A stretch of DNA of 64,000 nucleotides from contig OZ024742.1 in assembly GCA_964016885.1 (NCBI GenBank), positions 317,812,001 to 317,876,000 on the forward strand, read 5' to 3'. Below are positions 934 through 49,022 of the stretch, piece by piece; the first letter of the stretch is position 1, and the number at the start of each line of letters is the position of its first letter. Origin of the DNA: Eledone cirrhosa (taxonomy: Eukaryota). The translations under genes were made by a program, and so were the position numbers. The notes under the pieces are model-generated. The model searched no databases and had not been told where the DNA came from. It saw only the letters and a program-made list of their open reading frames with translations.

Positions 934-1078
934 TTTGAGTTTATGTTGGTTGTATACCAACACCTCAGTATGCAGGCTGGAGCACTCGACGAAGTGCGCA
1001 GGTTGGTTTGGTTACTCCGGAGTAGTGTAAAATAAAGTTAAATAAAAGTCAAATGATTAAAATTTAGCTTCGTTTATT

Positions 1079-1133
1079 ACTGCTATATATATTTCAGTGA
1101 CAGCCATCTTTGGCTGTGACCTCTTCAGGCAGT
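1079..1133 (-). ncRNA. Type I hammerhead ribozyme (inverted copy)
   Basis: Reverse complement of 2457-2511. Confidence 0.85.
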
Positions 1134-2456
1134 TTGAATTAGTATGGTATAGACAAGTACATATGTTGTTTAGGTGTATGATATTGTCAATACTCTGATA
1201 TGCCCAGTTCCTTGTTGGGTTGTTAATTCACTGGGGAACTGGAGTCATATGAATTCAAACAAACGAATTTTAGTGTCACAGGTCCCCTTCTCCTCTCATT
1301 GGTCAGTTATTAGTGTTGTCATTGTTGGAGTTAGCTTAAAAATTGATAAAATGGTAGAAGGGACAAGGTGTTGAAGGAACAAAATATCAAAAAATGTGTC
1401 AAACTTCCCATTGTTCAGTTCTGAGAGCATTCCTCAGTCAGACACAGCCATAATAATCTGGCCAACATCTATAACACAAACACTTTTAATTTACCAGATT
1501 TCTGACATTAAAGTTCCAATCTTAAATCTTGATTTCTCTATATTAATTTGTTATTTGTTTTCTGCCCTCTTCACTGTATAACCTTATATTTATATTTATT
1601 TTAAGTTGAGATAGATTATAACACAAACACATTGAATATCTCATCTTAACATCTTGTATCATACCAATCTATCCAACATATTCTGACCTTGAGATTGGTT
1701 ATAGCACACACACACACACACTTTATCCTACATTATTTCTCACTTCTCCATATACATTATCATTACTTTTTCACCAATCTCTCATTTACTCTTTATTCTT
1801 TATTCTCTATTTATTTATTTATTTTCAAATTACACAAATTATATTAATTATTTTATTTTATTATATTATTTATTTATCTTCTGTTTTCTTCATTTATTGC
1901 CTTATATTTCTTCATATACATGAAATAACCCCACCCACCCCCCACCCCGCCACCACCACTACGATGGTGGCGGGTGGGATGAAGAGAAAACACAAACTGA
2001 ATACTTCTAAATTGTTAGCAGCAGCAAGATATAAGCTGACCACTACAACAACAACAGTACCAAAATAATGGTGGAGGTCAAATGTACTGAACAATAGCAG
2101 GCATAAACACTACAGGGAGCCTCACCCCAGAAAGAATTCTATAGACTTCTGACTGATGAATGCTCTCAGAACTGAACAATGGGAAGTTTGACACATTTTT
2201 TGATATTTTGTTCCTTCAACACCTTGTCCCTTCTACCATTTTATCAATTTTTAAGCTAACTCCAACAATGACAACACTAATAACTGACCAATGAGAGGAG
2301 AAGGGGACCTGTGACACTAAAATTCGTTTGTTTGAATTCATATGACTCCAGTTCCCAGGTGAATTAACAACCCAACAAGGAACTGGGCATATCAGAGTAT
2401 TGACAATATCATACACCTAAACAACATATGTACTTGTCTATACCATACTAATTCAA

Positions 2457-2511
2457 ACTGCCTGAAGAGGTCACAGCCAAAGATGGCTGTCACTGAAATA
2501 TATATAGCAGT
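2457..2511 (+). ncRNA. Type I hammerhead ribozyme
   Basis: ACTGC-CTGAAGA-ggtcACAGCCA aaga TGGCTGTcact-GAAA-TATATA-TA-GCAGT: stem I ACTGC/GCAGT, palindromic stem III. Confidence 0.87.
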
Positions 2512-2562
2512 AATAAACGAAGCTAAATTTTAATCATTTGACTTTTATTTAACTTTATTTTA

Positions 2563-2929
2563 TATATATGTATATATATATATGTATATATATATATATA
2601 TATATACATATATATATATATATATATATACATATATATATATATATGTATATATACATATATATATGTATATATATATATATATACATATACATATATA
2701 TATGTATATATATATATATATATACATATATATATGTATATATATATATATACATATACATATATATATGTATATATATATATACATATATATATGTATA
2801 TATATATATATATATATATATATACATATACATATATGTATATATATACATATACATATATCTATATATATACATATACATATATGTATATATATATATA
2901 TATATATATATATATATATATATATATAT
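2563..2929. repeat. (TA)n/(TACA)n microsatellite
   Basis: Direct reading. Confidence 0.95.
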
Positions 2930-3731
2930 GTACGTGTGTATGTGCGCGTTTAGTGGGTGTATAGGAAACTAGTATGTGTACATACTCATTATATGTCCGT
3001 ATGTTTTATTTATATATTGATAATCATTACATATGAGTTTCTTTTTTTCCTTGTACAACTTTGCTATATATACATACATGAATACATATATATATATATA
3101 CATATATGTGTGTGTGTGTGTGTGTGTGTGTGTGTGTGTGTGTGTGTGTGTGTGTGTGTGTGTGTATGTGTGTGTGTGTGTGTGTGTGTGTGTGTAAAGA
3201 TAGAGAGAGAGTATTTATTACGTATATACTGGCTCGTCAAGTATGAATTTGTAGAAATTTCTTTTTTCTCTACAAATTTCTACAAATTTCATACTTGATG
3301 CCCCAATACATGTATATTTATCCAATCCATCTACGTGTATGTATGTATACGTATATTTCTCTATTTACACATACATACCAAAATGGCGAGATAGTAGGAC
3401 TGAGACACATATCAACACCCACAACTACACAATGCTCAATGTCTGTTAATTAGACCTGAAGAAGAATTGGTTCGTTATTCACACAATAAATTAGAAACAC
3501 GCCTTTTTCCGCCCGTTTATATCTGTCACTTTATTTTCAGCAATTTTATGACGGACGGACTGGGGCAGCCTGGTTTCTCAATCCTACCACAAATTGTTAT
3601 ATAGCCATATCATTTCTTTAATTGGATCTCACATCTTTCATATATACACACACACACACACATATATATATATATATATATATATATATATATATATATA
3701 TATATATATATATATATATATATATATATAT

Positions 3732-4099
3732 ATGAATGTATGTATAATATATTTGGCAATATACCATATGTTTAATTAAAAACAATTAGAAGACCATACG
3801 CTATCAGTTTTAAAGTAGGACTATGTCACTTACTTCCTTTCGATGAAAGAAGGGAGAGAAGCTGACAGTCTGTTTCACGCTGGTTGGTGTTCATCAGAGC
3901 CACGCTCTCCCCTGCTTCCGCCGAAAATTATAGAAACTGGATTTTTATAGACTTCCAGTAATAATCAGGAGCTGATTATACAGAGCGATTGACGGTCCAC
4001 CAAAACATAGGTATTAGGATTGGTGTTCTAAAATAGCGATGTATACATGAATGTATGGATAGTATATTTGGCAATATACCGTATGTTTAATTAAAAACA
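3732..4099 (-). mobile_element. Retrozyme-like 315-bp monomer with ~53-bp terminal redundancy in (TA)n
   Basis: ATGAATGTATG...TTAATTAAAAACA occurs at 3732 and at 4047; internal HHR; (TA)n on both sides. Confidence 0.75.
3860..3901 (-). ncRNA. Type I hammerhead ribozyme
   Basis: Minus strand GGCT-CTGATGA-acaccaaccagcgt-GAAA-CAGACTG-TC-AGCT; stem I extends via GGGAGAG/CTCTCCC; stem II weak. Confidence 0.72.
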
Positions 4100-4169
4100 T
4101 ATATATATATACATATGTGTGTGCGTGTGTTTATGCGTGTGTGAGAGAGAAAGGAGTGAGTATGTGGAC

Positions 4170-46604: not shown

Positions 46605-46786
46605 CACAACTGAATACTAACCCATATTCCTAATTAAACCATTTTTCAACTGTGAACAATTTGTCAGCATTTTCTATTCCGTTGACCAATATATAATAAC
46701 TTGTGTGTTACACCTCTATTCTTTTAACTATATATATATATATATATATATATATATATATATATATATATATAGGAACCAGTAAG

Positions 46787-46880
46787 ACCCCGACGGCTGA
46801 GCTCAAGCCGTTTCGACGGCTATTTCTGGACTAAATGACAATTTATCCTGGTATTTAAATAGCCGAGCTTCTCAAGGGGT
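46787..46880 (-). ncRNA. Type I hammerhead ribozyme, U3-A8 variant core, long stem II
   Basis: Minus strand ACCCC-TTGAGAA-gctCGGCTATTT...AAATAGCCGtc-GAAA-CGGCttgagctcaGCCG-TC-GGGGT. Confidence 0.82.
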
Positions 46881-47016
46881 AATTCCATATATGGGAAATA
46901 GAGGAACCAGGTGGACCATAACGCACCAAAGTACTCAATACTTAGGGTAGTAAAGTGGGTAATAGGAACCACATTTCCTTCGTTATATATATATATATAT
47001 ATATATATATATATAG

Positions 47017-47234
47017 TGACGAAACATAAGTCAATTGAATGAATTCATAATCCTTTATTTACTGCTATATATATTTCGATGATAGCCATATATATATAGC
47101 AGTAAATAAAGGATTATGACTTCATGCAATTGACTTATGTTTCGTCAATATTATAACTCCGGAAATTATATCTTTTGAGTGCTCCCTATCCGCATACTGA
47201 AGTACTGGATTTTACCAACACTAACTTTCTTGCT
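47017..47234. mobile_element. Miniature fold-back related to the 934-2562 family
   Basis: Arms ~47017-47074 and ~47090-47147 contain TATATAGCAGT; tail GAGTGCTCC..GCATACTGA matches the 934-1027 tail. Confidence 0.75.
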
Positions 47235-48096
47235 TATATATATATATATATATTATATATATATTATATATATATATATATATATATATATATATATATA
47301 TATATATATATATATATATATATATTGTTATACTTTGGGAGGGTCATGTTGCCAAGTATATATATATATATATATATATATATATATATATATATTATAT
47401 ATATTATATATATATATATATATTATATATATATTATATATATTATATATATATTATATATATATTATATATATATTATATATATATTATATATATATTA
47501 TATATATATATATATATATATATATTATATATATTATATATATATTATATATATATTATATATATATTATATATATATATATATATATTATATATATATA
47601 TATATATTATATATATATATATATATTATATATATATTATATATATATTATATATATATTATATCTATATTATATATATTATATGTATATTATATATATA
47701 TTATATATATATTATATATATATTATATATATATATAATATATAATAACTAGAAATTGATTAACATATAAATAAACATGAATAATCACAGGAGATAATTT
47801 TTACAAGTGTGTAAGCACGCATAGCTAGGTAGGTAACTAAATAAACTATAATATATATATATATTATTTATATATATATATATTATATATATATATATAT
47901 ATATATATATATAAGTTTTTGATAATTAATTAAGAAGAGGATAGTTACGATGACAACTACGGGTGTGTGTCTCTCTTAGATCTCTTCAGTGAAGCATTAT
48001 ATAACACGTAGCCACCAAACCTTAGAAAGACTTGGAAAAGACACACATTTTGGTATTATTCGAAAACCAGTCGAGTCATGTTATTTCATATGTCAG

Positions 48097-48285
48097 AAGG
48101 GCGGTGGATTGGCAGTATTGGTAGAGAGTCGGACACCATGCTTTGACGTATAGAGTTACGGCCCTTGCTATTCTGAGTTCAAATCCCGCCGAGGTTAACT
48201 TTGCCTTTCATCCTTACGGGGTCGATAAAATAAAGTACCAATAATACATTGGGTAATTGCTGGCCTTGTGCCTAACGTAGAAACA
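48097..48285 (+). mobile_element. Full SINE with 17-bp TSD GTTATTTCATATGTCAG
   Basis: TSD at 48080-48096 and 48286-48302; tRNA-like head plus MetaSINE-like domain. Confidence 0.88.
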
Positions 48286-48679
48286 GTTATTTCATATGTC
48301 AGCTTTTCTTCAGCTACATCTGCTATCACCTTCCTATGTGATACTTAGTACAATAATAAATACCCATCAATGTATGTGTACATTCTTCCAATTCGTGGAT
48401 TCCTACATGGTGTTAATGTCGCATTCAATATGTTAAACTTTAACGTTAACACGTTCAAATTCAATATCAACAGGCAACGATTTCGGTCTTACCAACATTT
48501 ATTGCTGTCACAAACAAAACCACTGTTTCGGCGAGATAAAATTTTACAAACATCTTCGAATTCATTGCCTGTTAAGAAGACATTAAGACAGAAAATCCAT
48601 CCATAATATTGTGTGTGTGTGTGTATATATATATATATATATATAGAGAGAGAGAGAGAGAGAGATTTATATATCATTA

Positions 48680-48826
48680 TTTGGCAGTATCGGTATAGGG
48701 TCTGACGCCATTCTGAGTTCAAATCCCGCCGAGGTTAACTTTGCCTTTTATCCTTACGGGGTCGATAAAATAAAGTACCAGTAATGTACTGGGTAATTGC
48801 TGGCCTTGTGCCAATAGTAGAAACAA
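48680..48826 (+). mobile_element. SINE copy (internally deleted)
   Basis: Near-identical to 48170-48285. Confidence 0.85.
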
Positions 48827-49022
48827 TTATTTAATGTAGAAATTACTTCTACTGGACTAAAACTGTTTCATTCATATGAAATCACCAGGAATGATGATTT
48901 CATACGAATGAAACATTCCTAGTCACATAGAAGCCATTTCTACATTAAATAATGATGTTCACACTCTACTAATGTATTGAGTACTTTATCAACTGTGGTT
49001 AACCCCGATTTAACTCGGAATG
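48827..49022. mobile_element. Old diverged miniature fold-back (family of 28571 HHR)
   Basis: Two decayed HHR cores back to back around ~48890; tail with ACTC...GAGT. Confidence 0.7.

What the first reader, a model, noticed from the sequence alone, without database searches (positions are those of the whole stretch)
934..49022. Shared fold-back polarity: 5' ends joined centrally, 3' ends facing outward into (TA)n
Seen: in every inverted insertion where HHR or ORF polarity is readable (934, 10763, 16544, 22810, 28878, 34381, 36326, 37235, 39221, 42044, 47017, 48827) the left arm is on the minus strand and the right arm on the plus strand. Junctions are 0-1-nt hairpin apices or microhomologies. 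Established: inverted pseudo-LTR arrangements occur in PLEs. Inference: (TA)n is self-complementary, so both cut strands can prime reverse transcription (twin priming), or the cDNA snaps back. Non-coding retrozyme-like arrays follow the same rule, which points to PLE machinery.
Basis: partly seen in the sequence, partly recalled or inferred. Interest (0 to 1): 0.75.

Follow-up and report, generated by a model that had tools for sequence, protein, structure and literature searches.

The report
Head-to-head Penelope insertions, likely twin-primed
These mirror-image inserts in TA repeats are the known head-to-head insertion form of Penelope-type jumping genes, here shared by non-coding ribozyme repeats, and they likely arise when both cut DNA strands each start copying the element's RNA and the two copies are then joined in the middle.

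Summary
The polarity is real. All 12 sites read left arm minus, right arm plus (four with caveats). It holds genome-wide: 43 of 43 adjacent opposite-strand pairs in five family searches, and 25 of 25 readable compound inserts in six unselected 100-kb blocks. A SINE-like control shows both orientations (20 versus 27). It is not new: head-to-head is published as the usual Penelope-like arrangement (PMC3846280, PMC8557442), and this scan found it before on other DNA of this genome. What the data add is mechanism. In 49 of 50 two-armed inserts with both ends visible, exactly one arm carries the 'tail'. That arm is often the shorter one or a tail-only stub, so neither arm is a copy of the other. 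Junctions show microhomology or templated filler; only 4 of 19 are true hairpins. This favours twin priming plus end-joining over cDNA snap-back or the published antisense self-priming idea. Three non-coding hammerhead repeat families (310, 463, 591 nt) obey the same rules, structural support for their proposed mobilisation by Penelope-like enzymes. TA self-complementarity helps but is not required. Native long reads were not available.

The parts
934..2562 (.). Family A (Hydra-type PLE) head-to-head insert: minus arm 934-1442 with 94-nt tail (934-1027), plus arm 1443-2562 tail-less and longer; HHR at 1128 (-) and 2462 (+)
   Evidence: longer copies carry a GIY-YIG ORF with CxCX5C linker in the HHR sense
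10763..11351 (.). 591-nt non-coding HHR repeat: minus arm 10763-11231 (tail-less end), plus arm 11231-11351 (tail part only)
   Evidence: tandem unit also seen in contigs of other runs
16544..16730 (.). Family B stub: minus arm with HHR (16608), plus arm with tail
22810..28705 (.). Family B insert: minus arm from 22810 (HHR 22870), plus arm to 28637 (HHR 28577) plus 67-nt tail; holds a nested minus-strand PLE GIY-YIG fragment at 26096-26980
28820..33618 (.). Family D (Neptune/Nematis-type linker) near-perfect palindrome: 58-nt tail 28820-28877, minus arm 28878-31247, plus arm 31249-33618; 5'-truncated RT-GIY-YIG ORF on each arm, one substitution between arms, 2-nt overlap at the centre
34381..35160 (.). 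Partial-tandem minus arm with tail (HHR-like motif at 34737) and short plus arm; perfect palindrome centre near 35060
36326..36505 (.). Family G stub: half-HHR hairpin, tail on the minus arm; centre differs from copy to copy in 12 copies viewed
37235..38890 (.). Family E insert: minus arm (HHR 37321) tail-less, plus arm (HHR 38698) with about 100-nt tail
39221..39470 (.). Composite: minus-strand 3' end of a D-like element (39221-39297), 35-bp inverted copy of family F, then family F plus arm with tail (39332-39470)
42044..45713 (.). 463-nt HHR retrozyme-like arrays: 4.1 units minus with about 60-nt tail, 3.8 units plus, tail-less; the plus arm holds a haplotype absent from the minus arm
47017..47235 (.). 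Stub with half HHR: minus arm tail-less, plus arm with 87-nt tail
48827..49022 (.). Old family B stub (arms 81% alike) inside a SINE-like repeat; plus arm with 69-nt tail; no TA at left
63293..64000 (-).

Best explanation
These are Penelope-like element insertions, and insertions of non-coding hammerhead repeats, with 5' ends joined centrally and 3' ends facing out into (TA)n, likely made by twin target-primed reverse transcription followed by end-joining. Shown by sequence: the polarity, one tail per insert, tail ends at TA/AT steps, microhomology or templated filler at the centre. Inferred: the GIY-YIG nuclease cuts both strands of a TA tract; each 3' end primes cDNA on sense RNA, one at the tail-less start site and one 25-170 nt further 3' (the tail site); both cDNAs stop early; their 3' ends are joined by host microhomology-mediated end-joining and filled in. 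Usually both primers use the same RNA or RNAs of the same source; when both run to one RNA end a perfect palindrome results. Non-coding HHR repeats would be copied in trans by the same enzymes.
For: One tail per insert in 49 of 50 two-armed inserts with both outer ends visible: D 16 of 17, A 14 of 14, R463 7 of 7, R591 10 of 10, R310 2 of 2. In D the tailed arm is the longer in 8, the shorter in 4 and equal in 4 of 16, and 2 further loci have a tail-only inverted stub; in A it is the shorter in 7 of the 9 such loci whose junction was also in view. At 10763 and L134 the arms are consecutive, non-overlapping parts of the RNA, as in L1 twin priming. All 18 D tails listed end at a TA/AT step, though at only about three clustered sites. 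Central overlap of 2 nt or more in 9 of 19 D junctions against 14.5% expected (p 0.0007); 3 of 19 carry 10-29-nt fillers, two of them visibly copied from the arm ends. Perfect palindromes L033 and L057 join through self-complementary 2- and 4-nt ends with no loop, which suits annealing of two cDNA ends. The window's 463-nt plus arm carries a linked haplotype found elsewhere in the genome but not in its minus arm. In vitro, an anole PLE protein cuts and extends both strands and starts at two sites that flank the tail (PMC11167929).
Against: No biochemical or read-level test here. 4 of 19 D junctions are symmetric within 5 nt (0.24 expected, p about 1e-5) and arms share locus-private variants (4 D loci; 3 A loci), which fold-back predicts as well; in A the symmetry excess is not significant (3 of 13, p 0.14). 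The two discordant polymorphic D sites are CpG transitions, so D gives no proof of two templates. In the anole assay the start sites did not differ between strands, so why each insert uses exactly one of each site is unexplained. 8 of 29 D loci have one arm only. A fold-back intermediate later trimmed by the nuclease could also leave one tail.
Confidence: 0.75

Rival explanations
1. One cDNA is primed, folds back at its 3' end and copies itself (snap-back); the nuclease later trims one end to leave a single tail.
For: Excess of exact palindromes in D (4 of 19); shared private variants; short inverted fillers at some junctions (L040, L054, 39221) show that local fold-back synthesis happens.
Against: 15 of 19 D junctions would need loops of 36-2000 nt; tailed arm shorter or tail-only in 6 D and 7 A loci; non-overlapping arms (10763, L134); 463-nt arms of different haplotype. 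A 0-1-nt loop cannot prime (general knowledge).
Confidence: 0.12
2. Self-priming on an antisense transcript, the model proposed in PMC3846280 to explain head-to-head palindromes.
For: It was proposed for this very polarity and for intron retention; it predicts palindromic centres.
Against: Same nesting problem as snap-back; it does not explain outer ends fixed at two sites that match the in-vitro start sites on sense RNA, nor inner ends clustering within 5 nt of the sense-strand HHR cut (3 of 18 for R463, 3 of 22 for R591, each p 0.008, post hoc).
Confidence: 0.06
3. Assembly or amplification chimeras (fold-back reads at AT-rich DNA).
For: The 28878 arms are 99.9% alike; one locus beside an N gap (L054) has mirrored TA flanks, and the window has a palindrome beside its N gap (46424-46604). 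Junctions could not be checked in native reads.
Against: Chimeras are blind to element polarity and would mirror the flanks; no mirrored non-microsatellite flank within 1.2 kb of any of the 12 sites (some flanks are wholly microsatellite over that span); one-sided tails; arms down to 81-90% alike in old copies; SINE-like pairs unbiased and 0 of 19 LINE loci inverted.
Confidence: 0.03
4. Two independent insertions into the same TA tract, or selection against tail-to-tail pairs.
For: TA tracts collect many elements; neighbours of different families share tracts.
Against: Arms are joined directly with no TA between, share private variants, and 0 of 43 pairs are tail-to-tail; independent neighbours do show tail-to-tail pairs (window 33540/39232; C12 8071/11190).
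Confidence: 0.02

Closest known systems
Endonuclease-bearing Penelope-like elements with an inverted 5'-truncated copy and one-sided tail (PMC8557442 Fig. 2 legend and passages; PMC3846280 parts 1-4 of 5)
   Same: Head-to-head polarity, partial tandems, palindromic or microhomology junctions, tail at one end, HHR near the 3' end, (TA)n targeting in Hydra and Naiad clades.
   Different: Tails here run 25-170 nt rather than 30-40; the one-tail rule is nearly strict; papers give no counts and propose self-priming or nuclease resolution, not twin priming.
Anole Poseidon PAc in vitro (PMC11167929, parts 1-2 of 4)
   Same: Both target strands cut and extended; two RT start sites flank the tail; AT-rich target.
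   Different: No homology needed there and no inverted product described; here ends show 2-3-nt TA matches and each insert uses one start site per arm.
L1 twin priming (passages of 10.1101/2024.12.14.628481; original model recalled, not read)
   Same: Both strands prime; 5' ends meet centrally with microhomology.
   Different: L1 arms are non-overlapping parts of one RNA with a poly(A) end; here arms mostly overlap, start at fixed sites, and inversion is the majority form (21 of 29 D loci).
Metazoan non-LTR retrozymes (PMC7229834 and PMC7761336 passages; bioRxiv 10.64898/2026.07.22.740005 parts 1-2 of 5 and passages)
   Same: Non-coding tandem units of a few hundred nt, one type I HHR per unit, PLEs proposed as helpers.
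   Different: Those texts do not describe head-to-head arrays, tails or TA targets (term searches); circular RNA was not tested here.

Membership tests
EN+ Penelope-like elements | Single ORF with RT and C-terminal GIY-YIG nuclease | tested here: met
   Family D ORF 1210 aa with YVDD and YIG motifs; Pfam RVT_1 E 8e-5, below cut-off; the full ORF gave no Pfam hit; A fragment GIY-YIG E 0.001.
EN+ Penelope-like elements | Tandem/partial-tandem units, inverted 5'-truncated copy, one-sided tail | tested here: met
   4117-bp tandem unit; tail equals the first 25-58 nt of the next unit.
EN+ Penelope-like elements | HHR motif near the 3' end | tested here: met
   Met for A, B, E; D has only a degenerate core (sequence).
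EN+ Penelope-like elements | RT phylogeny within the PLE clade | not tested
   No reference PLE set was at hand; no tree built.
Neptune/Nematis-type (family D) | CX2-5CxxC linker before GIY-YIG and CCHH motif | tested here: met
   C-X4-C-X2-C at aa 1077, two Cys inside the nuclease core and H..H at 1147 against PMC8557442; motif only.
Hydra clade (family A; ORFs at 26096 and 39734) | CxCX5C linker, C-terminal EN, HHR, (TA)n target | tested here: met
   Motif read in all three against section 11 of PMC8557442; RWK and DKT motifs not examined.
Non-LTR retrozymes (310, 463, 591-nt units) | Non-coding tandem repeat with a type I HHR in each unit | tested here: met
   the 591-nt core is a variant.
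Non-LTR retrozymes (310, 463, 591-nt units) | Self-cleavage and circular RNA | not testable with these tools
   Indirect only: inner ends cluster at the predicted cut; variants recur with periods of 2, 3 and 6 units. No RNA run was laid.
L1-type twin priming | Arms are non-overlapping segments of one RNA | tested here: not met
   Met only in a minority (10763, L046, L055, L134); most arms overlap.

The most novel reading that the evidence does not exclude
Two-ended priming is the normal PLE integration step: a dimeric enzyme assigns one target strand to each of two fixed RNA start sites, can copy one RNA twice (or round and round if circular), and inserts non-coding hammerhead RNAs the same way, so these arrays are a genome-wide record that settles how PLE inverted repeats and tails form and identifies PLEs as the retrozyme helper.
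Probability: 0.45. Interest if true: 0.6.

Novelty: new member of a known kind. Interest (0 to 1): 0.36.

Why it matters
How Penelope-like elements make their tandem/inverted structures and tails is named as open in PMC8557442 and PMC11167929, and the helper of animal retrozymes is only proposed (PMC7229834). A near-strict one-tail-per-insert rule across coding and non-coding families gives a sharp prediction for the existing in-vitro system and argues against the published antisense self-priming idea. Practically, such palindromes should not be purged as assembly chimeras or annotated as MITEs or miRNA hairpins. The polarity itself is known, and this scan has reported the same reading many times, so the increment is moderate.

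Tried and rejected
Rfam scan gave only low-complexity miRNA-type matches among the 150 rows shown, all below gathering score; HHRs came from my own pattern scans. MFE folding of six HHR regions did not stand out from shuffles in five, and the D 3' end did not either. Read tests were uninformative: the 16 runs listed were short-read contigs or RAD-seq, no native long reads; opposite-strand joints on the D unit came from 1-2 read starts in a RAD library and their polarity is not given; no listed piece bridged the 10763 junction, and the joints seen there are the native unit order. The own-genome search with the 310-nt unit returned nothing because common words are skipped. L054, a D arm joined to a 310-nt arm, was considered as proof of two templates but lies by an N gap with mirrored flanks, so it is only suggestive. 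C12 72792/73163 looked chimeric but has TA between the elements. The idea that the tailed arm stalls just before the tail-less site fitted the three window arrays but only a minority of 12 further two-armed arrays; not relied on. Rows dropped before the 25-of-25 count: all pairs matching a library entry contaminated by a SINE-like repeat (47 rows, used as control), one ambiguous pair (C5 45657, with its companion row), one tail-to-tail pair between two separate inserts (C12 8071/11190), and inverted repeats with no polarity marker; 80 clusters were found in the six blocks. Family searches score only the best 40 candidates, and D stretches were placed with more DNA on the 5' side (about 2 kb on the 3' side). 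Searches for a printed twin-priming model of PLEs and for head-to-head retrozymes found none; the 2005 and 2006 PLE reviews cited there were not read and no supplements were opened, and either may hold such a model.
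Full report
Setting. The window is G000:C3:317812001-317876000 of a 3.0-Gb animal genome, rich in (TA)n. That it is a cephalopod is a guess from genome size and from scan notes, not tested.

Observation. I read each of the 12 sites and assigned sense by hammerhead (HHR) motif, ORF or homology to marked copies. All have the left arm on minus and the right arm on plus. Five have a marker on both arms (934, 22810, 28878, 37235, 42044); the rest rely on one arm, half an HHR or family homology. 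10763 consists of consecutive parts of a 591-nt unit, 39221 is a composite of two families, and 48827 lacks TA on the left. HHR sense agrees with ORF sense in family A.

Genome-wide test. Adjacent opposite-strand hits of one family were head-to-head in 10 of 10 (D), 14 of 14 (A), 4 of 4 (463-nt), 12 of 12 (F) and 3 of 3 (591-nt); these include the window's own sites where listed. In six 100-kb blocks chosen without regard to content, 80 inverted-repeat clusters were found; 25 compound inserts had readable polarity and all were head-to-head. A dispersed SINE-like repeat gave 20 head-to-head and 27 tail-to-tail pairs (pairs not independent), and 0 of 19 loci of the window's LINE showed an inverted part within 3.4 kb. 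Flanks are not mirrored and old arms have diverged to 81-90%, so artefact is unlikely, though no native long reads were available.

Anatomy. Family D is a young element (copies about 99.8% alike) with a 4117-bp tandem unit and a 1210-aa RT-GIY-YIG ORF with a Neptune/Nematis-type linker. Family A and two window fragments have the Hydra CxCX5C linker. Of 29 D loci, 19 have two arms, 2 have an arm plus an inverted tail-only stub, 8 have one arm. One arm ends at unit position 4117; the other runs 25-58 nt into the next unit (the tail) and stops at a TA/AT step. Exactly one tail was seen in 16 of 17 D, 14 of 14 A, 7 of 7 463-nt, 10 of 10 591-nt and 2 of 2 310-nt two-armed inserts with both ends in view; the exception (L052) has one arm ending 93 nt short. 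By eye about 22 of 24 unselected inserts printed show it too.

Mechanism. A fold-back copy cannot hold sequence that its template lacks. Yet the tailed arm is the shorter in 4 of 16 D loci, tail-only in 2 more, and shorter in 7 of 9 A loci; at 10763 and L134 the arms are consecutive stretches of the RNA; and the window's 463-nt plus arm carries a haplotype present elsewhere in the genome but absent from its minus arm. Central junctions show enriched microhomology (9 of 19 with 2 nt or more, null 14.5%) or 10-29-nt filler (3 of 19), typical of end-joining (the link to a host end-joining polymerase is recalled knowledge). This fits two primers, one per cut strand, as shown in vitro for an anole PLE that extends both strands from two start sites flanking the tail (PMC11167929). 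Against a pure two-molecule model, 4 of 19 D junctions are symmetric within 5 nt (0.24 expected) and arms share private variants. I read this as one RNA, or one source, usually serving both primers; fold-back in a minority, or fold-back plus trimming, is not excluded. TA matches of 2-3 nt probably guide priming, but self-complementarity is not required, since rotifer inserts are head-to-head with ordinary target duplications and the anole enzyme needs no homology.

Non-coding repeats. Three HHR tandem families follow the same polarity, tail and target rules. Locus-specific variants run through all units of both arms in several arrays (L053, L217, L224, L233), variants recur every 2, 3 or 6 units in others, and inner ends fall near the predicted HHR cut more often than chance (post hoc). 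This supports PLE-driven insertion and is compatible with circular templates, but no RNA was examined.

What is known. PMC3846280 (parts 1-4 of 5 read) calls head-to-head the most frequent arrangement, notes palindromes at the junction, and proposes self-priming on an antisense template. PMC8557442 (passages and section 11) describes the inverted 5'-truncated copy, a tail often at one end, and (TA)n targeting, and calls the mechanism open. Retrozyme papers propose PLE helpers without describing this architecture in the passages searched. PMC13282606 (passages) does not discuss it. I found no printed twin-priming model for PLEs, but older reviews and supplements were not seen. Earlier notes of this scan reached the same reading on other DNA of this genome; they are not independent support.

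Verdict. Real, PLE-made, polarity already published; twin priming with end-joining about 75% likely. The value lies in the counts and in the extension to retrozyme-like arrays. Interest 0.36.

Noticed in passing
window 10830-10935 (-), 591-nt family: The HHR core of this young family reads UUGAUAA instead of CUGANGA, which looks like a compensatory U3-A8 pair (recalled variant); inner arm ends at 513, 518 and 520 lie near its predicted cut at 515, hinting that it is active.
   Followed up: partly
L230 2241-3752: A 591-nt minus arm runs directly, with no TA, into a 463-nt minus arm and then a 463-nt plus arm: possible template switch between two retrozyme RNAs, or nesting.
   Followed up: partly
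L054 2062-4885: Family D arm joined through a 20-nt inverted filler to a 310-nt array; beside an N gap with mirrored TA, so possibly mis-assembled.
   Followed up: partly
L216, L221, L224: Variants repeat with periods of 3, 6 and 2 units within arrays; L224 carries three extra A-to-G changes in nearly all units of both arms.
   Followed up: no
L035 2099-6215 (family D ORF, about aa 245-405): Long asparagine-rich segment before the RT, recalling the N-rich inserts of rotifer Penelope ORFs in PMC3846280.
   Followed up: no
window 46424-46604: 181-bp near-perfect palindrome abutting the 200-N gap; could be an artefact or another stub.
   Followed up: no
window 13030-13085, 38475-38516, 58582-58644: Short perfect or near-perfect palindromes not assigned.
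   Followed up: no
window 4373-7766: 42-bp minisatellite, 81 copies, with long open frames on both strands.
   Followed up: no
window 52177-57900: Decayed LINE with AP-endonuclease and RT fragments; about 93% alike copies elsewhere; used as control.
   Followed up: partly
tails of families A, B, E, G and others: Many tails share a short GAGTRC-like motif in the element sense, a possible protein-binding or start-site signal (seen by eye).
   Followed up: no
L233 4711-4753 and 8440-8483: A 591-nt array sits between 43-bp mirrored flanks, apparently inserted in the TA centre of an older small hairpin.
   Followed up: partly
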